Positions 8,018-61,428 of a stretch of DNA of 64,000 nucleotides are shown here, one piece after another. This stretch comes from a virus (Duplodnaviria; Caudoviricetes). The stretch covers positions 1-64,000 of IMG/VR virus record IMGVR_UViG_3300033068_001957; one strand, written 5' to 3'. A program made the translations under genes and the position numbers. The notes below the pieces were generated by a model that saw only the letters and a list, made by a program, of their open reading frames with translations, was not told the DNA's origin and did no database searches. Within the stretch, counting starts at the first letter, position 1. Each line of letters opens with the position of its first letter.

Positions 8018-11000
8018 ATGCCAGAAAACCTACAAATTACAGCAGATGTGTATGCAAATACACAGCCTGCCGCTAGACAAGTCAAAGCGTTTAGTGATAA
8101 GAACCTTAATAATTTAAGGATTAATCTTGGTGTCAATGACGCTGGATTAAGAAAGGCTAGTAACGGATTAGGTCAAATTCGCAATGACGCGGATCAATTC
8201 ACAAAGTCAATGGCAGCGGCAAATGCCCGCGTTTTGGCTTTCGGAACGGCTGTTGGTGTTATCGAGGCAATGCGTCGTTCATTTTTAGCATTGATTAAAA
8301 CTACGGTTGATGTGGAAGAGGCTTTAACAAAAATTTCTGTTGTTGCTGGCGATGATCTCCAAAAAGCTGGAATTTCTATCGGTCAACTCGGGAAAAGCCT
8401 CTTTAACATCGCTAGAGATACTGGCCAGTCTTTCGAAACAGTCAATCAAGCGGCTCTTGAGTTCCAGCGTCAAGGTATTGGCGTTCAAGAAAGCTTAAAG
8501 AGAACTCGCGATGCTATGATCGCAGTGAGAATTTCTGGTGTTAGCGTTGGAGATGCTGTTAGCGGACTAACATCTATTCTCAATGCTTTCAAAAAGTCAG
8601 GACTAGATTCTACTACGGTTTTAAATAAACTCGTTGCTCTGGACAACTCTTCTGCCGCATCTTTCCCAGATTTGATTCAAGGTATGCAGCGGGCAGCTTC
8701 GGTTTCCCAACTTGCTGGCAATAACTTTGATCAAACTGCGGCATCTATCGCTACGTTACAAGAAATTACTGCCCGTGGCGGTCCTATTATTGGTAATGCC
8801 CTAAAATCTATTGATACAAGACTATATGGTGAAAAATCATTAGAATTTCTTGAAAAGTTTCAAGGAGGCATAGTCAAAACTAAGGATAGTGCTGGGCAAT
8901 TACTTCCGTCTATCGAAATTATTAGAAGTCTAAGCCAGGCTTTAAAAACTGTTCCAAAGGGTGAGCAATTGGGGGTTTTGACCAAACTATCTGGCTTATA
9001 TCAAGTAAACTCCCTTTCTGCACTTGTTGATTCATTTCAATTAGTAGAGGGAGAGATTTCTCTTTACGACAAAAACCTTCGGACTTCAATTAATACTACT
9101 AATGAAGCTGGCGCGGCTAACAAAAAGCTGTCGGAAATTCTTGCATCTCAGTTTAATACAATTGGCGTTAATATTACTGAGTTCCTAAATAAGCTTGGAG
9201 AAATTGGCGTAAAAAACCCATTATCTGGAGTTTTAGATTTCCTAATTAAAATTCAGGGGACACTACAAGGCATTCTCGAAGGTAGCGGCCCACTAGATAC
9301 AATCATTCAAAAGGGCGCAAAATTTGCTGGAGGAACTTTATTTTCAACTCCCGTAGTCTTGGGCGGGGCATTTGTCTTGGTAAAAATCATAAAGGATTTC
9401 CTTGCTTTCGCGGGGACTGCTTTTAAAGTATTTACTGGGATCAATCAAAAATTAAATGAAGAAGGCTCGCTCTCTTCTACTATTAATTCGAAGCTCCAAT
9501 CTACAAACGGAGAATTAAATTCCGCCTTTAGCGCCGAACAGAGAAGACTCTCTATAATTAAATCTTCCAACGCTGAGTATTCCAAACAACTCGCTCTCAC
9601 AACTGGCATTGCATCTGCTACTAGTCGTCCATCAACGAGTCTTTTAAGCAGAGGCGTTATAGAAGGAACCTCCAACGTTCGAAAATCTGGTGGCATCGTT
9701 GGAGATGTAAGTGATTATCTTCCTTCTATTATCGGCGGCAATAAGCCTAGTCTAGCCTCTGTTTTGGGGTCTTCCATTAGCAATGGCAGATCGTCAACTT
9801 CTAGCGCGAGTGCAGCACCGAGCGGATTAGCATTGGGAAAACCAAATATTTCCAGCGGTTTAAGAAATAAAGCTGGCCAATTTATTGATTCTAAGGGCAT
9901 AAGTAATGCGCTGGGTCTTCTTATTAATTCATGGGTTTTCGCGGGCAAGGAATCTCTTGAGATGGGCAATCTTATTAGAAAAGCTGTCGGTGATTTCAAT
10001 CTTGGGCCAGCATTTAAGATTGTTTCTAAAGAAGCTAATGCTTTCGCGCAAGATTTAATTAAGAAAAGAAATGTCTCTAATGCGACGGCCAGAGGGGCTA
10101 TTCCTGGCTCGTTAGGGAAACTGAATACTGGCGGCACTGGTTTTACTTCTAGCGCACAATTTGCTGGATTGGGGTTTAATCGTCCAGCTACAGAAGTTTC
10201 TAAAGTTGGACTAGGCGGATTTCCAAATATTGCCGCACTTCCTCAATTTGATAAAGAAAGACTAGCGCTAAAATCTGCCACCGAGCAAAGACTTCGAATT
10301 GATACAAAAAATAGAATTGCTGGCCAGCAAGAATTAGCTGGAACATTACGCGCCCGTGATAGGCAAAAAGATTTTTTTAATCAGACAGAGACTCAAAGAG
10401 GTGAGGCGCAGAAAAGATTAAATGAAGCAAAATCTAGTAAATCTGATACTATTGATTTGGGCAAAGCTGTTGTTCCTAAAAAAGAAGCCGTGAAACTACT
10501 TGCTAAAGATGTGGCTTTTAGAGCTGGCTTGGCTAATCGCGCAAAAAGTAGATTGGAAGAATTAGATAAAACTCTCTATGAACAATACGGAATCGAAGCT
10601 TCGAAGTCTTCTAAAACTGTAATCTCGGAGTCTCAAAAAGCAGATCAAGCGGCTCTTGCGGATCGCCTTAGAAATAAATTTGGCGGTAGAGCCGCATCTG
10701 GCCAGCCTTTATTAAATGGGGGCAATACTCTCGCTGGTTTGCGCCGCTCCGATGATATCAGTGGTGCGAAAAAGACTGGCTTTGATAGTGATGCTCTCAG
10801 GAATTTTGCATTTAAGGCTGTTTTAGTTACCTCTCTATTTTCTGGATTAAGCGAGTCTCTTCGTGGAGTTAGTCCTGGGTTGGATAAATTTGCTAACTTT
10901 TTAAATACTGCTTCATTAGCGGGAGGAGGCATTGAAGCATTAAATGAAGTTGGTGGCGTTAGCTTAAAGACTATTGGTGATGATTTAAAAGCGTTTAAAC

Positions 11001-30667: not shown

Positions 30668-31027
30668 TTATTGAGGAAATGGGCTATGTTTTGGCTTGTT
30701 TTGTTGCTTCAAACGAATTTGTTCGACCTTTCCCCAAATTCTTGTTAATTCTCGTTCTCCTTCTTCGTGCATATTTAATGTTTGGGCCAAGCAAAGCGCT
30801 GCCAACGTAATCATTACGCCGCCGACTTCCTGATGTTTTTCTCCCACGGGTCGATTAAAAACATAATCAACCAACTGGTGAGCTTCGCTTGCGGTACAGT
30901 CGCATGCTTGAACAAGTTCAAGAGCCTCCTCTAGGAAGCGATGATTGCGTTCTTTTTTATCGTTGGCGATTTCGTGGCCAAAACATGCGATTAGCCAATC
31001 TAGGGTTCTATCTTGTAGGTTTTGCAT
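30668..31027 (-). CDS. MazG-like NTP pyrophosphohydrolase-fold protein
   Basis: RFLEEALEL...QEVGGV all-alpha acidic motifs. Confidence 0.55.
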   Translation of the reverse strand: MQNLQDRTLDWLIACFGHEIANDKKERNHRFLEEALELVQACDCTASEAHQLVDYVFNRPVGEKHQEVGGVMITLAALCLAQTLNMHEEGERELTRIWGKVEQIRLKQQNKPKHSPFPQ

Positions 31028-31126
31028 ATTAAATTTCTAGTTCAAAGATTTGTAGATATTAAACGATTTTCGCAGGTTGTCAAGAGATTCCGTCATGTTT
31101 CGTATGAAAAAAGTGTAATATACGGT

Positions 31127-31939
31127 ATGGAATATGATCTAAACAATAAATACTGGGCTTACTTTTTGGGATTTTTTTGGGGAGATGGGTGTTTCGGTGC
31201 GAATGGGAAACCAACAACCCCAAGAATAGTAATTTTAAAATCTGATGCTGATATTCTTTTCCCAGTATTTGCTCAAATTCTATCTTTTCAATACCGAGAA
31301 TTTGAGCAGCCTAACGGCAAAATTGCCTCAGTTGCGCTGTTTAATTTTAATAAAAATAGTCTAATAAAGCTTTTAGCCGAAAATGATTATCTGTCTAAAG
31401 CCATATCCCCTCACACTAAAATATTAAAATTAATACCTGAAAATTTACACAACTATTTTTGGCGCGGATTTTTCGATGCGGATGGCTGTTTTTTTAAGAG
31501 CGTAAAGAGAAAAGGCGGCGTTTTTTCTGTGGTTAGCGACATAAGACAGGATTGGAGAGAAGTCAGAAAAATGTTTGCATCTATAGATGTCGAAAGCCTG
31601 CAAGAATACAAAGATGTAGAAAAAAATGGAAATAAAAGCTCAAAATTAATATTAGCCAATGGGAAAGGGATAAAAAAACTTTACGATTATCTTTATCCGT
31701 GTGGATTCGACCTTGGTCTTGAGAGAAAATTTCAAAAGGCGACGGATATTTTAGACTCTCTTCCTAAATATACATCTATACATAAGAATATTTCATGGAA
31801 TAAGAAAGACAAAAAATGGAATGTTATTGTTGGCGATAAATATCTAGGAAGATTTTCTGATATAAAGGACGCGGTAGATGCTAAAATCAGATTTCTAGCT
31901 CAAATATCTGCCTCCAAAACACTTGAAATGTCGCATTAA
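31127..31939 (+). CDS. LAGLIDADG homing endonuclease with C-terminal AP2-like domain
   Basis: FLGFFWGDG and FWRGFFDADG; SIHKNISWNKKDKKWNV..YLGRFSDIKDA; start MEYDL 7 nt after GTGTAAT. Confidence 0.85.
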   Translation: MEYDLNNKYWAYFLGFFWGDGCFGANGKPTTPRIVILKSDADILFPVFAQILSFQYREFEQPNGKIASVALFNFNKNSLIKLLAENDYLSKAISPHTKILKLIPENLHNYFWRGFFDADGCFFKSVKRKGGVFSVVSDIRQDWREVRKMFASIDVESLQEYKDVEKNGNKSSKLILANGKGIKKLYDYLYPCGFDLGLERKFQKATDILDSLPKYTSIHKNISWNKKDKKWNVIVGDKYLGRFSDIKDAVDAKIRFLAQISASKTLEMSH

Positions 31940-54119: not shown

Positions 54120-56546
54120 TTATTCGCAGACTACGCATCCTTCTTCTTTTCGGCAAACTGCACCTTCTTTATATTCTGGTTCTTTTTCTTCAATTTTTTT
54201 GATGCCAGAAGCTTCTTTATTCCGAAGATAATATGTGGATTTAAGTCCAAGCTCCCATGCGAGTTTGTAAATATTGCTGATTTCCTTAATGTCAGAGCCA
54301 GCGTAGTAGATATTTAGTGATTGACCCATATCAATCCAAACCTGCCGTGCGGCAGCAGCGCGAATCAAAGTCTTCATATCTCTATCCCAACATGAAGCAT
54401 AGAGTTCTTTTACTTCTTGTGGAATGTTTAGATATTTGATGTTGCCCTCGTTCTTCAAAAGGGCGCTACCAATTTGATGGCTCCAAAGGCCGCGTTTCTT
54501 AAGTTCGAGTTTCAACCATTGAAAGGCGTTGATATTATAGTTTGTTCCTGCGTCATTTTTGTAAACGGCCAAACACTCGTAAGTCGGCTCGATGCTCTGC
54601 TCGCAATTATGGATATAAGAAATTCCAGCCGTTGGAGCGATAGCTTGGGTATTGCTGTGGCGCATCCCGTGTTCTGCCACATGGGAGCGCACGATTGACC
54701 AATCTAATGTTTCTAACTCTGAAAGAGTGGGGGTCTTCGAACCGCGATATTCCATTAAGTTTCTATATGTATCTTGGGGTAGGAGTCCCTTACTCCAGAG
54801 ACTTCCCTCGTATGTAGAATACTTACCACGCTCTTTAGCTAATTCTGAGGACGCTAGAATTGCATGATATGAGATAAATTCTTGAATCTTCGATGCAAGT
54901 TTAACCCCCTCTTCTGAATCGTATTTGATTCCAAGGGCATAGCAAACATCTTGGAAACCCATAAATCCGAGAGCAATCGGACGATGTTTTAGATGAGCGA
55001 GCGTTTCGTGTGTCGGATAAAAATTAATGTCGATAGCATTATCAATTGCCCGAACTGTAGTTTTTACCGTTTTCGCGAGCTTATCCCAAAGAATAACGCC
55101 GTTCTCTACGTGATATTTTCCATTCACAGATGAAAGTTGGCAAACGTAAGTCTCGCCATGCTCAATAATATCCCCTAACTCAGATAACTTAGTCTTCTTA
55201 TTATGAAGAAAAATCTCCGTGCAAAGTTGCGTATTATGAATAATACCTTGATGAATATTAGAATATCTAATATTTGCGGGGTCTTTAAAGGTTATCCATG
55301 GATGACTAGTTGAAAACAAAAGTTTAAGATGCTCCGTCCAGAAATCAATGGCTTTAATTTTTTCAAATTTAATTTCGCCCGCTTCTGCTTTTTCTACATA
55401 TTGGCGATATTTTTCGTTAAATTCCTTGCCGTAGATTTCGTGCAATTCAGGAACATCTTTTGGATCAAAGAGATACCAATAGTCTTTATTCTTTAGGCGA
55501 TTAAAAAATTCGTCTGGATACCAAGCGGCAGTATTAAGTTTGTGGGTGCGTTCCCATTCTTCGCCAGTAGCCTTTCGAAGTTCCATAAAGCGTTTGAAAT
55601 CCATATGCCAAGTTTCCATATAGACGCAAGCCGAACCTGCTCTTTTGCCACCCTGATTGAAAGCCTTAATCATAGATTCAACCATTTTAATAAAGGGGAT
55701 TGGGCCGCTGGAAACGCCATTTGTACTTTTAATATGGGAGCCAGAGGCGCGAAGGCTTGTAACATCAATCCCAAGACCGCCCGCATATTTACTCATTCGC
55801 GAATTTTGCCACAACATGTAACCAATACTATTAGCGTCGTCACTAATAGTAGAACCGAAACAGGATGCCGTCTGAGAATGAAGAGTCCCCGAGTTAAAAA
55901 GAGTGGGGGTGGAGGCGCTGGCTAGAAAATTTGAATAATTATTATAAAACTCTATTGCCACATCTTCTTTATTTTCTTCCAGAAGGCAAAGGCCCATCGC
56001 TACGCGCATCCAAAAAGCTTGGGGCGTTTCGATAATCTTTTTGTCGATTTTAAAGAGGTATTTTTGGCGAAGATTTTTCATGCCTGCAAGAGAAAGAAAT
56101 TCATCTCTTTGGGGCGAAATTGCTTGCGAAATCTTTTTAAGATCAAATTCTAGCAAACGTGGGTCAAAAAATCCTTCTTTGACTCCTTTTTTCAAACCCT
56201 TAATGAAGGCTGAACGGTAATCATCTACGAATGTAACGTCTGTAATTGAATCTTTGAAGATTTCTTTATAGAGACAATTCAGGGAAAGTCTTGCCGCAAC
56301 GTATGACCAATTGGGGTCTTTTGGAATTTTTGCCGCCGCAGCTTCAATCAGAGCTTCGTCGATGCTTTCTGTCGGGACTTTATCGTAAAGTTTAATTTGC
56401 GCATCAATAACAAGCTCTGAGGGTGAAACATCTTCAAGATTTTGGCACGCTCGTTCTGCTACTTTATTTACTTTGTCTGGATTAAATTGTTCGATTCTGC
56501 CATTCCGTTTCTTTACCGAGAGTTTTCCGCGTTCCATTTTTTCCAT
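54120..56546 (-). CDS. nrdA: class I ribonucleotide reductase alpha subunit with ATP-cone
   Basis: VKKRNG cone, TPTLFNSGT, SCF, LCTEI, IAPTA, TYYLR, C-terminal Cys cluster; GTGTAAC at 56556-56562. Confidence 0.95.
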   Translation of the reverse strand: MEKMERGKLSVKKRNGRIEQFNPDKVNKVAERACQNLEDVSPSELVIDAQIKLYDKVPTESIDEALIEAAAAKIPKDPNWSYVAARLSLNCLYKEIFKDSITDVTFVDDYRSAFIKGLKKGVKEGFFDPRLLEFDLKKISQAISPQRDEFLSLAGMKNLRQKYLFKIDKKIIETPQAFWMRVAMGLCLLEENKEDVAIEFYNNYSNFLASASTPTLFNSGTLHSQTASCFGSTISDDANSIGYMLWQNSRMSKYAGGLGIDVTSLRASGSHIKSTNGVSSGPIPFIKMVESMIKAFNQGGKRAGSACVYMETWHMDFKRFMELRKATGEEWERTHKLNTAAWYPDEFFNRLKNKDYWYLFDPKDVPELHEIYGKEFNEKYRQYVEKAEAGEIKFEKIKAIDFWTEHLKLLFSTSHPWITFKDPANIRYSNIHQGIIHNTQLCTEIFLHNKKTKLSELGDIIEHGETYVCQLSSVNGKYHVENGVILWDKLAKTVKTTVRAIDNAIDINFYPTHETLAHLKHRPIALGFMGFQDVCYALGIKYDSEEGVKLASKIQEFISYHAILASSELAKERGKYSTYEGSLWSKGLLPQDTYRNLMEYRGSKTPTLSELETLDWSIVRSHVAEHGMRHSNTQAIAPTAGISYIHNCEQSIEPTYECLAVYKNDAGTNYNINAFQWLKLELKKRGLWSHQIGSALLKNEGNIKYLNIPQEVKELYASCWDRDMKTLIRAAAARQVWIDMGQSLNIYYAGSDIKEISNIYKLAWELGLKSTYYLRNKEASGIKKIEEKEPEYKEGAVCRKEEGCVVCE

Positions 56547-56668
56547 AGTCTAAAAGTTACACGACAAGAACGCTTTGGGCAAGTTGTTTTTTGCAGTGTT
56601 TTGGATTATTTTTGGCGCGAAAACTAGATTCTCAAATTTGCGAGTTTCAGTTTTCGCCGAAAGTTTAA

Positions 56669-56719
56669 TGGACACTTTTTGTCCATTTCGCTAAAATCGT
56701 GGACACTTTTTGTCCATTT
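56669..56719. repeat. two identical 20-bp palindromic boxes TGGACACTTTTTGTCCATTT
   Basis: 56669-56688 and 56700-56719, 31 bp apart, TGGACA-N5-TGTCCA. Confidence 0.9.
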
Positions 56720-56793
56720 GGCAACTTTTTTAAAATAGTTTGAAAGATTGTGTGAAAGAAAGTGTAAGTATTGGGGAAACCTAAGAGGATGGG

Positions 56794-57073
56794 GCCAAGC
56801 GAAGCGGCAAGTAGGAGAAAAAGCTGAAAGCATCAGCGAAGCGATTAAAACGATAGCAATGATAAACGCTTAAACTCCTTGATAACATAAACAATGAATA
56901 GCTTGAAACGAGGAACGAGTTGAAAGCTTAAAGGAGTTTGAGGATTAATCCTCATTCAAAGCTGGAATGAGGAACGAATGGAAGCGGTTATAATGTGCGA
57001 AGCACCTAATGTACCAGAGAACATACGCTATCGTATGTAGTACGCGATTCCAGAAAAGCCCTTCGGGCGAAGC
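56794..57073 (+). other. cluster of GAA-triloop hairpins; candidate replication origin / ssDNA signal
   Basis: Four GCGAAGC copies plus GA-mismatch hairpins in non-coding DNA at the strand switch. Confidence 0.55.
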
Positions 57074-57203
57074 AAAATATTAGAATCTTCTGTAGGTCCG
57101 CCGATTGTTAAAGGCTCACATCTATCTTTTCGGCGCAAAATATTTTTGGCCGCTCTCATTATTTTCTTGCAAGAAAACTAATCTAGTGTACGTTTGTACC
57201 TCG

Positions 57204-57557
57204 ATGAACCTATACAGACTCATAGTACTCCACGGCGGGCCGAAAAGCTCTTGCACAGCAACGTTTGGTTATATGCTCGCGGAAAATGATGAGCAAGTTT
57301 ATAATCGCCTGAATGATGAAGCGTTTTGGAACGAAGCAGATGAATCTTACATTCTAGAGCGAGAAGAATACCCAGATATGTTTGATCCTGCCCGTCCTAC
57401 GCCCAAAGAACAGATTATGAAGGATTGCGGTGATTTAAAAGACGATAACTGGGACGACGCCTACTACGGTATTTGGAAATACGGCTGGGAAAATCTTGGC
57501 CCAATTACCAACGAAGAGTCTGATGTGTTGGCGAAATTTAAAATGTTAATTGCATGA
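57204..57557 (+). CDS. hypothetical protein
   Basis: Likely start MNLYRL; TTGCAA-16-TACGTT upstream. Confidence 0.55.
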   Translation: MNLYRLIVLHGGPKSSCTATFGYMLAENDEQVYNRLNDEAFWNEADESYILEREEYPDMFDPARPTPKEQIMKDCGDLKDDNWDDAYYGIWKYGWENLGPITNEESDVLAKFKMLIA

Positions 57558-60558: not shown

Positions 60559-61428
60559 ATGGGTGAAGAAAATGGGAAATGTAGCGTAGTGTGCGGTATT
60601 TACAAAATCACGAATAAAAAAACGAAGAAAGTTTACATTGGAAGCTCCGAAAATCTAAAGAAAAGATTTTACGATCATAGAAGTGACTTAGAGAATAATA
60701 GGCATAAAAATTTTAAACTCCAAAATTCTTGGAATAAACATGGAAGCTCTGAATTTGCATTTGAAATAATTCTATTTTGTAGAGAAGATGATTTAATACA
60801 AAACGAACAAATGTTTATTGATTTTCATAGCACTGAAAGCATGTATAACATATGTCTAATCGCGGGGAATACAAAGGGCTATAAACACACAGAAGAATCG
60901 AAAATAAAAATTGGGAAAAATAGTTTGGGCAATAAACACTCTTTGGGAAGGAAGCTTTCTGACGATCATAAAAAAATAATAAAAGAATCGCTTAAAGCGA
61001 GAGTCATTACCAAAGAAACGAGAGAAAAGCTCTCAAAAATTCACAAAGGAAAGCCAAAGTCGGAAGACCATAAAAGAAAAATAGCCGAAACTTTAAAAGG
61101 AGTTCCCTTGCCAGAAAAGGCTCGGATCAATTCACAGACGCCCGAAGCTATAGAAAAAAGAAGACAAAAATTATTAGGAAGACCTCTTAGCGAAGACCAT
61201 AAGAAAAAATTAAAAGGCTCTAGAACAGAAGAAGGAACTAAGGCGTGGAGAGAAAAAATGGTTGGAAGAAAACAAACTGAAAGTCATATGATTAATGCAA
61301 GAGAGGGGCGTAGAAAACGTAGGGAAAAAGACCTTGCAGAAAAACTCCAAAAAGAATTTAATCTCGGAAAAAATGAAACCACTGTTAGTATAGTGGTGGA
61401 AGATATAAAACAACAAACAACAAAGTAA
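60559..61428 (+). CDS. GIY-YIG homing endonuclease with NUMOD3 repeats
   Basis: GIYKITN..VYIGSS..R..H; HTEESKIKI / LSDDHKK / KSEDHKRKI repeats. Confidence 0.9.
   Translation: MGEENGKCSVVCGIYKITNKKTKKVYIGSSENLKKRFYDHRSDLENNRHKNFKLQNSWNKHGSSEFAFEIILFCREDDLIQNEQMFIDFHSTESMYNICLIAGNTKGYKHTEESKIKIGKNSLGNKHSLGRKLSDDHKKIIKESLKARVITKETREKLSKIHKGKPKSEDHKRKIAETLKGVPLPEKARINSQTPEAIEKRRQKLLGRPLSEDHKKKLKGSRTEEGTKAWREKMVGRKQTESHMINAREGRRKRREKDLAEKLQKEFNLGKNETTVSIVVEDIKQQTTK

What the first reader, a model, noticed from the sequence alone, without database searches (positions are those of the whole stretch)
56794..57073. Array of GAA-triloop hairpins with sheared G-A pairs: a strand-specific ssDNA structure element
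In 280 non-coding bp the plus strand has GCGAAGC four times (56799, 56836, 56997, 57067) and GCTGAAAGC (56823). It also has two hairpins that pair only if tandem G-A mismatches are allowed: AGCTT-GA-AAC-GA-G-GAA-C-GA-GTT-GA-AAGCT (56900-56928, nested in an AAACTCCTT/AAGGAGTTT stem) and GCT-GGA-AT-GA-G-GAA-C-GA-AT-GGA-AGC (56961-56985). Perfect palindromic stems occur at 56939-56954 and 57021-57038. d(GCGAAGC) is an exceptionally stable DNA mini-hairpin known from the phage G4 origin, and GNA-triloop hairpins form N4 virion RNAP promoters. Sheared GA steps fold on one strand only, so standard folding tools would miss them. Inference: a folded ssDNA landing pad for primase/helicase loading at the origin, or an injection, packaging or early-transcription signal.
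Basis: partly seen in the sequence, partly recalled or inferred. Interest (0 to 1): 0.75.

Follow-up and report, generated by a model that had tools for sequence, protein, structure and literature searches.

The report
Conserved one-strand GAA-loop hairpin array
A 300-base non-coding stretch next to the nucleotide-synthesis genes of an uncultured 160-kb phage is a conserved chain of small hairpins that fold on one strand only and follow the rules for unusually stable DNA mini-hairpins. It may mark where the phage starts copying its DNA, but a non-coding RNA is nearly as likely.

Summary
Every motif sits at the stated coordinates. Four exact GCGAAGC lie on one strand within 275 nt, against 12 in the whole 160-kb genome on both strands.

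The element is single-copy and matches no Rfam family. It lies in the 657-bp divergent gap between nrdA and a run of nucleotide-metabolism genes.

I found homologues in six metagenomic contigs. Across five distinct sequences, 30 Watson-Crick pairs are 86% kept (29-40% in slid controls). Fourteen pairs show compensatory changes, including the G-C pair inside the "GAGGAACGA loop". The tandem G.A steps and GNA triloops are conserved, and G-U is almost absent.

GCGAAGC and GC-GAGGAACGA-GC replace each other at two sites. A conserved phage-type promoter motif (GTGTAA) points into the array. Upstream lie twin palindromes found nowhere else in the genome and an AT-rich tract. The genome's cumulative GC-skew minimum falls here.

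In some relatives an HNH endonuclease cassette replaces the 3' third.

Function is unproven. My odds: about 0.4 for single-stranded DNA hairpins at a transcription-activated replication origin, about 0.35 for a non-coding RNA that binds a protein. N4-type promoters are disfavoured. Other windows of this scan noted similar c-GNA-g arrays on other DNA.

The parts
56669..56716 (.). Two identical palindromes TGGACA-N5-TGTCCA (56669-56685 and 56700-56716), 31 bp apart. They are context: a candidate initiator or regulator site upstream of the array.
   Evidence: These are the only two copies in the 160-kb genome, even with one mismatch allowed. They are conserved in L195 and L197 (two copies each) and in L196, L198 and L200.
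56740..56768 (+). Promoter-like TTGAAA-N17-TGTAAG, containing the phage motif GTGTAA at 56762-56767. It is directed into the array and preceded by an AT-rich tract.
   Evidence: The motif and its 17-18 nt spacing are conserved in L195, L197 and L201, and degenerate in L200. GTGTAA is the most enriched hexamer (17-fold) in the 40 nt before ORF starts. It usually lies 8-27 nt before the ATG.
56799..56805 (+). Mini-hairpin H1, GC-GAA-GC.
   Evidence: The homologous site in L195 reads GC-GA-G-GAA-C-GA-GC. The site is absent from L197, L200 and L201.
56823..56831 (+). Hairpin H2, GCT-GAA-AGC.
   Evidence: The stem covaries (GCC/GGC, GTCC/GGAC) and the loop is GAA or TGAAA. All cells are paired and two pairs show compensatory change.
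56836..56842 (+). Mini-hairpin H3, GCGAAGC within the invariant AGCGAAGCG.
   Evidence: It is invariant in all five aligned sequences and also present in the divergent L196.
56843..56899 (+). A-rich linker with the conserved words AATGATAAA and TGATAAC. Positions 56849-56856 can pair with 57027-57034 as a long-range helix.
   Evidence: Conserved columns are seen. The long-range helix is predicted and mostly kept in L195, but its 3' strand is missing in the genomes that carry the HNH cassette.
56900..56928 (+). Hairpin A: AGCTT-GA-AAC-GA-G-GAA-C-GA-GTT-GA-AAGCT.
   Evidence: The outer and inner stems covary in L195, L197 and L201. The inner G.A/A.G step is invariant. The loop is GAA, or GGA in L201.
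56939..56954 (+). Perfect hairpin 5: TGAGGAT-TA-ATCCTCA.
   Evidence: All cells are paired, with A-T changed to G-C in L195. The loop varies.
56961..56985 (+). Hairpin B: GCT-GGA-AT-GA-G-GAA-C-GA-AT-GGA-AGC.
   Evidence: All three inner Watson-Crick pairs show compensatory change. This includes G-C to A-T directly under the triloop in L195. The G.A steps are invariant in five sequences.
56995..57005 (+). Hairpin H7, GTGC-GAA-GCAC. It lies at the 5' edge of the segment (56994-57124) that an HNH cassette replaces in relatives.
   Evidence: L195 and L201 have T-GA-GC-GNA-GC-GA-A, with tandem G.A where the window has G-C and T-A. L197 and L200 have GC-GAGGAACGA-GC. The insertion limits come from blastn.
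57021..57038 (+). Palindromic hairpin ACATACG-CTAT-CGTATGT. It excludes the long-range helix with 56849-56856.
   Evidence: It is only partly conserved in L201 and poorly in L195.
57058..57073 (+). 3' hairpin GCCC-TTC-GGGC (57058-57068), overlapping the fourth GCGAAGC (57067-57073).
   Evidence: The hairpin is conserved in L195 and L201. In L195 a T6 run follows it, making it terminator-like. On the minus strand its loop reads GAA or GTA.

Best explanation
The element is a conserved, plus-strand-specific chain of about ten short hairpins. Their tips are GNA triloops and their stems contain tandem G.A pairs.

My best reading is that these hairpins act as folded single-stranded DNA at, or next to, a transcription-activated replication origin. 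The proposed steps are all inferred:
1. A factor binds the twin palindromes at 56669-56716.
2. The AT-rich promoter region at 56717-56768 opens and fires rightwards.
3. The purine-rich transcript and/or unwinding leaves the non-template plus strand single-stranded.
4. That strand snaps into mini-hairpins that SSB binds poorly.
5. This marks the place where the phage's own DnaG-type primase and DnaB-type helicase start work.

What is shown: the hairpins, their conservation and covariation, their strand polarity, the promoter-like motif and the genomic setting.

What is inferred: folding in DNA, R-loop or unwinding, and primase or helicase recruitment.
For: 1. Four exact GCGAAGC lie on one strand in 275 nt, against 12 in the genome. 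d(GCGNAGC) is the extraordinarily stable DNA mini-hairpin. Its RNA counterpart is much weaker. Such motifs occur at the G4 origin, at RSF1010 ssiA and in N4 promoters, and they bind SSB poorly (PMC13037366).

2. Loops stay GNA when they change: GAA becomes GGA in L195 and L201. GCGAAGC and GC-GA-G-GAA-C-GA-GC replace each other at two sites.

3. Covariation supports the hairpins. 86% of cells are paired against 29-40% in slid controls. Fourteen pairs show compensatory change, and 0 of 500 shuffles do as well.

4. Only one G-U appears among 147 cells.

5. Several covariation-supported hairpins have nearest-neighbour energies of 0 or above as RNA. Something beyond ordinary RNA pairing must therefore hold them.

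6. All tandem G.A steps sit in the Y-GA-R context, and hairpin B carries TGGAA opposite TGGAA. I know these as DNA motifs from my own reading of the literature.

7. The setting fits an origin. It has twin boxes unique in the genome plus an AT-rich tract. It lies at the major minus-to-plus gene switch. The global cumulative GC-skew minimum is at about 56 kb. The strand is 63% purine, in the top 0.5% of windows.

8. The phage encodes DnaG-like primase, DnaB-like helicase and DnaE-like polymerase.

9. The divergent relative L196 has 7 GCGNAGC in 410 nt at the same locus.
Against: - No experiment or read-coverage data were available, so origin activity and DNA folding are untested.
- The GC-skew minimum coincides with a switch in gene orientation, which alone can produce it.
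- The GAGGAACGA tips close their triloop with G:C. In DNA this is 2-3 kcal/mol less stable than C:G (PMC3201870).
- A promoter motif, a 5' hairpin and, in L195, a plus-strand terminator are just what an RNA gene would have.
- The 3' third is replaced by an HNH cassette in four contigs, so at least that part is dispensable.
- The replication genes lie 17-29 kb away, not beside the element.
- Both strands fold better than shuffles under standard parameters, so the folding programs do not show strand specificity.
- The comparative set is small: five sequences, and effectively three independent versions of hairpins A to B.
Confidence: 0.4

Rival explanations
1. The element is a gene for a non-coding RNA of about 230-330 nt, transcribed from the GTGTAA promoter. 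Its chain of hairpins displays identical GA-G-GAA-C-GA and C-GAA-G tips. It works as a multi-site binding platform or sponge for a phage or host RNA-binding protein. It could also act through its conserved single-stranded linkers.
For: - A promoter-like motif of the phage's own class is conserved and points into the element.
- No ORF follows it, and indels among homologues do not keep a reading frame.
- A hairpin directly follows the presumed start in all homologues.
- L195 ends in GCCC-TAC-GGGC followed by T6.
- The non-canonical pairs lie on the transcript-sense strand.
- Identical loop sequences on covarying stems and conserved linkers are typical of protein-binding RNAs.
- Tandem G.A pairs are also stabilising in RNA (my knowledge of the Turner rules).
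Against: - No Rfam family matches in the window, L195 or L196.
- Several conserved hairpins have 2-3 bp stems with triloops and are not stable as RNA by nearest-neighbour energies.
- The RNA form of the mini-hairpin is much weaker than the DNA form (PMC13037366).
- G-U pairs are almost absent.
- A terminator is present only in L195.
- No candidate partner protein was found. The 117-aa neighbour's more distant homologues lack the element.
Confidence: 0.35
2. The hairpins act in DNA but not in replication initiation. Possible roles are a packaging or injection signal, a site-specific nicking or recombination hotspot, or the recognition region of the HNH homing endonuclease that inserts here.
For: - The motif grammar is of the DNA type.
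- In L197-L200 an HNH cassette sits exactly at the 3' edge of hairpin B/C.
- The adjoining A-to-B segment is 97-100% identical among the window, L197 and L200. The flanks are not: L200 and L201 share a 98% identical neighbouring ORF yet are only 59% identical in this segment. That is the footprint of homing-linked gene conversion.
- The phage has a long siphovirus-type tail, and the true genome ends are unknown.
Against: - The element exists, with covariation, in genomes without the HNH gene (L195, L201, window). It is therefore not merely part of the cassette.
- No terminase gene was identified in the parts of the genome I annotated, so a packaging role has no positional support.
- Nothing ties the element to genome ends.
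Confidence: 0.17
3. The hairpins are N4-type promoters read on single-stranded DNA by a virion or phage-encoded single-subunit RNA polymerase.
For: N4 early promoters are 5-bp stems with GGA or GAA triloops, including GCGGAGC (PMC13037366). L195 carries GCGGAGC.
Against: - No PF00940 match in the genome, although the control genomes also gave none.
- The only ORFs above 900 aa are a tape measure and a tail fibre J.
- The element is a single locus with about ten hairpins and no genes between them.
- Most stems are 2-4 bp.
Confidence: 0.03

Closest known systems
DNA mini-hairpins d(GCGAAGC)/d(GCGNAGC), and their natural sites at the phage G4 complementary-strand origin and at ssiA of plasmid RSF1010 (Hirao and co-workers; review PMC13037366)
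   Same: The heptamer is identical and occurs four times on one strand. The GNA loop rule is kept: relatives have GGA. Most are closed by C:G. They sit in a place where priming could be needed. The phage has a DnaG-type primase and, by synteny with L195 and L197, probably an SSB.
   Different: G4 and RSF1010 use one to three hairpins on DNA that is already single-stranded or is melted by an initiator. Here about ten hairpins lie in a 160-kb double-stranded phage. Many are extended by tandem G.A steps and a G:C-closed triloop (GA-G-GAA-C-GA), which that literature does not describe. A promoter points into them. No priming has been shown.
Transcription-primed origins with a downstream primosome assembly site: T4 oriF/oriG, ColE1 and pAMbeta1 with its ssiA (from my own knowledge, not checked in papers here)
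   Same: The order of parts is the same: a factor-binding site, a promoter firing into an easily opened region, and then strand-specific hairpins on the displaced strand, which is the lagging-strand template.
   Different: No R-loop, primer or initiator has been shown here. The hairpin array is much denser. There is no sequence similarity to any of these origins.
Early hairpin promoters of coliphage N4
   Same: Both use GGA or GAA triloop mini-hairpins that form in DNA.
   Different: N4 promoters have 5-7 bp stems and stand singly before early genes, on the template strand. They need a giant virion RNA polymerase, and this phage has no ORF that could be one.
Multi-hairpin protein-sponge RNAs such as CsrB/RsmZ (from my own knowledge)
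   Same: A chain of hairpins presents the same short purine motif (here A-GGA-A) in its loops, with A-rich linkers and its own promoter.
   Different: The GGA is lost in one covarying copy (GAAGAATGA in L195). Stems are shorter and rich in G.A. No CsrA-like partner is known. No Rfam match.

Membership tests
DNA mini-hairpin motif d(GCGNAGC) | Heptamer G-C-G-N-A-G-C: a two-bp G-C stem and a GNA loop closed by C:G. | tested here: met
   There are four exact GCGAAGC on the plus strand. L195 has GCGGAGC at the homologous H7 site. L196 has 7 GCGNAGC in 410 nt.
DNA mini-hairpin motif d(GCGNAGC) | C:G (not G:C) closing pair under the GNA triloop. | tested here: inconclusive
   Met for the four GCGAAGC and for H2 in L200 and L201. 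Not met for the GAGGAACGA tips, which close with G:C. G:C closing is 2-3 kcal/mol weaker in DNA (PMC3201870).
DNA mini-hairpin motif d(GCGNAGC) | Extraordinary thermal stability of the DNA strand, greater than that of the RNA. | not testable with these tools
   Nearest-neighbour models give 0 kcal/mol or above for both DNA and RNA and do not contain this motif's bonus. Melting experiments are needed.
G4-type origin / single-strand initiation (ssi) signal | A strand-specific fold on the strand that serves as template for priming. | tested here: met
   G.A steps and GNA loops exist only on the plus strand, and they are conserved while neighbouring pairs covary. The role of that strand as a priming template is not shown.
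G4-type origin / single-strand initiation (ssi) signal | Primase-dependent primer synthesis at the hairpins, with SSB excluded. | not testable with these tools
   This needs purified phage primase (35482-36552) and SSB.
Replication origin of a dsDNA phage | Initiator binding sites plus an AT-rich unwinding element at the point where replication starts. | tested here: inconclusive
   Twin boxes unique in the genome and an AT-rich tract are present. The global GC-skew minimum is at about 56 kb, but it is confounded by the gene-orientation switch. There are no coverage data.
N4-type hairpin promoter | A phage-encoded single-subunit (virion) RNA polymerase. | tested here: not met
   No PF00940 match, though the controls were silent too. 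The only ORFs above 900 aa are a tape measure protein and a tail fibre J.
N4-type hairpin promoter | A 5-7 bp stem with a 3-nt loop, placed singly upstream of several early genes. | tested here: not met
   Most stems are 2-4 bp. About ten hairpins are packed at one locus with no genes between them. The element is single-copy.
Catalogued structured RNA (Rfam 15) | A match to a covariance model at its gathering score. | tested here: not met
   No match in the window, and none below E = 0.1 in the region. Nothing consistent in L195 or L196.
Independent non-coding RNA gene | Its own promoter and terminator, with no ORF. | tested here: inconclusive
   A conserved promoter-like motif is present and there is no conserved ORF. 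A terminator with a U-run is found only in L195, and a weak one in the HNH-bearing contigs. No expression data.

The most novel reading that the evidence does not exclude
A large double-stranded-DNA phage starts replication at a promoter-driven origin. Its displaced strand folds into an array of SSB-resistant mini-hairpins that recruit the phage primase and helicase. This would be a dsDNA-phage counterpart of the G4 and ssi priming signals. The GA-G-GAA-C-GA tip would be a previously undescribed stable hairpin cap, used repeatedly by unrelated viruses.
Probability: 0.25. Interest if true: 0.75.

Novelty: new variant of a known kind. Interest (0 to 1): 0.55.

Why it matters
Origins of most uncultured large phages are unknown. 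Strand-specific non-B DNA signals have been shown experimentally in only a handful of small replicons (G4, RSF1010, N4).

This case is clean and supported by covariation: G.A pairs and GNA triloops are under selection in a dsDNA phage. That gives a concrete, cheap test of whether such "DNA grammar" marks priming or loading sites. The test is to melt and probe the oligonucleotides and to run primase assays.

If the functional molecule turns out to be the RNA, the element defines a new phage RNA family built from an unusual hairpin cap.

Either way, standard folding programs miss it, so similar elements are probably under-reported.

Tried and rejected
- **Rfam and tRNA scans:** nothing found.
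- **blastn against cultured phages:** no match. The DnaE-like polymerase has only about 30% identity to cultured phages, so host and taxon remain unknown.
- **RNR-based loci from IMG/VR:** 80 loci, at most 50% aa identity, none with the element.
- **Pattern scans:**
  - AGCGAAGCG-N-GGAGTTTGAGG in viral and metagenome contigs gave only chance hits.
  - A three-block pattern gave one chance hit, inside a bacterial gene, in genome contigs and none in viral contigs.
- **More distant homologues of the 117-aa neighbour** (L082, L083, L330-L334) have no such element, so the protein and the element are not linked.
- **MFE folding of either strand, as RNA or DNA,** does not separate the strands. It also prefers some stems that covariation does not support, for example GCUGA/UCAGC over H2.
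- **Ideas considered and dropped:**
  - Hammerhead-like reading of CUGGAAUGAG...CGAA: the core does not fit and Rfam gives no hit.
  - K-turn or K-loop: there is no 3-nt bulge.
  - Riboswitch or leader of the downstream operon: the HNH cassette and a separate promoter lie in between.
  - Micro-ORFs after the promoter: not conserved.
  - NrdR boxes for the twin palindromes: the right half-site does not match the consensus as I recall it.
- **Hairpin arrays with GAGGAACGA tips in L100, L103, L116 and L185:** at least L116 has giant-virus-type neighbours. They are unrelated to this locus.

Full report
**Setting.** The window is the first 64 kb of a 160,188-bp uncultured virus record. The phage has a tape-measure protein of 2171 aa and a J-type tail fibre. 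It also has a DnaE-like polymerase, a DnaB-like helicase, a DnaG-like primase and a RecA/UvsX-like protein. It has no close cultured relative.

The finding lies in the 657-bp gap at 56547-57203. On one side is nrdA (54120-56546, minus strand; class I RNR with an ATP cone). On the other is a plus-strand run of small ORFs followed by a 5'-nucleotidase and a dNMP kinase. This is the largest switch of gene orientation in the genome. It is also the global minimum of cumulative GC skew.

**Observation.** GCGAAGC occurs 12 times in the genome on both strands, and four of these lie on the plus strand within 275 nt. GAGGAACGA occurs exactly twice, as the tips of hairpins A and B. The element is single-copy. 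It matches no Rfam family and contains no tRNA.

**Relatives.** RNR-based searches of IMG/VR gave only distant phages without the element. The 117-aa ORF just downstream (57204-57557) led to closer relatives in NCBI and Logan assemblies. These are L195 and L201, which lack an HNH gene, and L197-L199 and L200, which carry an HNH_5 endonuclease gene. L196 is more divergent. In all of them the left neighbour is an RNR gene. The non-coding region aligns at 68-87% identity. nhmmer with the alignment finds only these loci among the 328 loci fetched up to that point. The family is therefore small and specific to this clade.

**Structure.** I placed 30 Watson-Crick pairs in eight helices on alignment A4 (window, L197, L200, L201, L195).
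- 86% of cells pair, against 29-40% when partners are slid by 1-3 columns.
- Fourteen pairs have compensatory double changes, against 1-4 in slid controls.
- None of 500 shuffles reaches these values.

- The G-C pair directly under the triloop of hairpin B becomes A-T in L195 (GAAGAATGA).
- The inner G.A/A.G steps are invariant in all five sequences while the flanking pairs covary.
- In H7 the window has G-C and T-A where L195 and L201 have tandem G.A.
- Loops stay GNA: GAA becomes GGA twice.
- GC-GAA-GC and GC-GA-G-GAA-C-GA-GC replace each other at two homologous sites.
- L195's hairpin A carries a GGA/GGA internal loop like the one in the window's hairpin B.

The 3' third is less conserved and its fold is uncertain. 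It holds the palindrome at 57021-57038 and a possible long-range helix between 56849-56856 and 57027-57034.

For hairpins A to B there are effectively only three independent versions. That segment is 97-100% identical among the window, L197 and L200.

**Transcription signals.** GTGTAA is the most enriched hexamer (17-fold) in the 40 nt before ORF starts. It usually ends 8-27 nt before the ATG. Shine-Dalgarno-like words are at background level. The phage's genes therefore appear to have short or no leaders behind a GTGTAA-type -10 element.

One such motif (56762-56767) points into the array. TTGAAA lies 17 nt upstream of its TGTAAG hexamer. Motif and spacing are conserved in L195, L197 and L201, and no conserved ORF follows. 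The downstream gene and nrdA each have their own motif close to their ATG.

L195 ends the element with GCCC-TAC-GGGC followed by T6. The window and L201 have the hairpin but no T-run.

Upstream of the promoter lie two identical TGGACA-N5-TGTCCA palindromes, 31 bp apart. They are unique in the genome and conserved in relatives.

**RNA or DNA?** Compensatory changes fit either molecule.

These points favour DNA:
- The heptamer is the classic DNA mini-hairpin. Its RNA form is far weaker. It occurs at G4, ssiA and N4 sites and binds SSB poorly (PMC13037366).
- Only one G-U appears in 147 cells.
- Several covariation-supported hairpins (H2, H3, B) have energies of 0 or above as RNA.
- L196 carries 7 GCGNAGC in 410 nt.
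- The setting is origin-like.

These points favour RNA:
- The conserved promoter, the hairpin at the presumed 5' end and the terminator in L195.
- The G:C closure of the GAGGAACGA tips, which is the weaker closure in DNA (PMC3201870).

Standard folding cannot decide. Both strands score z = -3 to -5.6.

I combine the two lines into a transcription-activated origin model at about 0.4. I keep a protein-binding non-coding RNA at about 0.35, other DNA-level roles at about 0.17, and N4-type promoters at about 0.03. The last is low because there is no candidate polymerase, only one locus, and short stems.

**HNH cassette.** In L197-L200 an HNH_5 gene with its own GTGTAA motif replaces window 56994-57124. 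L200 and L201 share a 98% identical flanking ORF. Yet they are 59% identical in the hairpin A-to-B segment, where L200 is 100% identical to L197. This is the mosaic expected from homing with co-conversion. The window carries the HNH-linked version without the gene.

**A general cap?** In IMG/VR, loci selected for two GAGGAACGA copies 35-65 nt apart have at least 3 complementary flanking pairs in 11 of 111 cases. For the reversed 9-mer the figure is 1 of 117. The stems differ from locus to locus. The GA-G-GAA-C-GA tip therefore seems to recur as a hairpin cap in unrelated viruses, including giant-virus-like contigs. That suggests intrinsic structural value. It does not show whether the fold is in DNA or RNA.

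**Earlier notes of this scan.** Other windows noted the twin boxes and the GTGTAA promoter in this genome. They also noted one-strand c-GNA-g hairpin arrays in another phage, in a giant virus and in plastid minicircles. I used these as leads only.

Noticed in passing
window 56669-56685 and 56700-56716: Two identical TGGACA-N5-TGTCCA palindromes lie 31 bp apart. They are the only copies in the 160-kb genome and are conserved in L195, L196, L197, L198 and L200. They always lie between an RNR gene and the hairpin array. The protein that binds them is unknown.
   Followed up: partly
whole genome; e.g. window 7992, 21434, 30578(-), 52909(-), 56562(-), 56762: GTGTAA(T) is the most enriched hexamer (17-fold) just upstream of ORF starts. 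It usually lies 8-27 nt before the ATG. It has no clear -35 element, and Shine-Dalgarno motifs are not enriched. This suggests a -10-only promoter class and mostly leaderless mRNAs.
   Followed up: partly
L197:3321-3914, L198:406-927, L199:324-845, L200:333-926 (replacing window 56994-57124): A free-standing HNH_5 endonuclease cassette is inserted in the 3' part of the element in some relatives. The hairpin A-to-B segment next to it is 97-100% identical across otherwise diverged genomes. L200 and L201 share a 98% identical flanking ORF but differ in this segment, which is a homing co-conversion footprint.
   Followed up: partly
L195:1121-3360 (-): In this relative the large RNR subunit is called as two ORFs of 567 aa and 187 aa that together cover the Pfam barrel domain. 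The cause could be a frameshift, an intron or an assembly error. I did not examine it.
   Followed up: no
L100:990-1030 and 1940-2040; L103 (minus strand) 8540-8932; L116:7270-7340; L185:6590-6677: Tandem units of about 44 nt read CGGAG-stem-GAGGAACGA-stem'-CGTAGGTGAAT...ATTCCC, with covarying stems (GAAAC/GTTTC, CAAG/CTTG, TTAGC/GCTAA). L116 has giant-virus-type neighbours (a Ydc2/Pox_A22-like resolvase). No Rfam match. They are unrelated to the phage locus apart from the shared 9-nt cap.
   Followed up: partly
IMG/VR loci L084-L194 versus L336-L460: GAGGAACGA is flanked by at least 3 complementary pairs in 11 of 111 loci. The reversed control word is so flanked in 1 of 117. This 9-mer appears to be a recurrent hairpin cap in viruses.
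   Followed up: yes
L196:981-1440: A more divergent relative has one palindrome box and then a structured region of about 340 nt. It holds 7 GCGNAGC on both strands, a 12-bp long-range helix and a GC-GA-G-TGAAA-C-GA-GC hairpin. It sits at the same position between nrdB and a MazG-like gene.
   Followed up: partly
window 31022-31939 (+) and 60559-61428 (+): There are further homing-endonuclease-type genes in the window: a LAGLIDADG_3 ORF and a GIY-YIG/NUMOD3 ORF. The genome is rich in selfish nucleases.
   Followed up: no
window 57125-57203: A conserved block lies before the 117-aa ORF: an imperfect dyad CGGCGCAAAATATTTTTGGCCGC, then TTGCAAGAAA-N-GTGTAC about 12 nt before the ATG. It is also conserved in L195, L200 and L201. 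It is probably the promoter and operator of the downstream operon.
   Followed up: no
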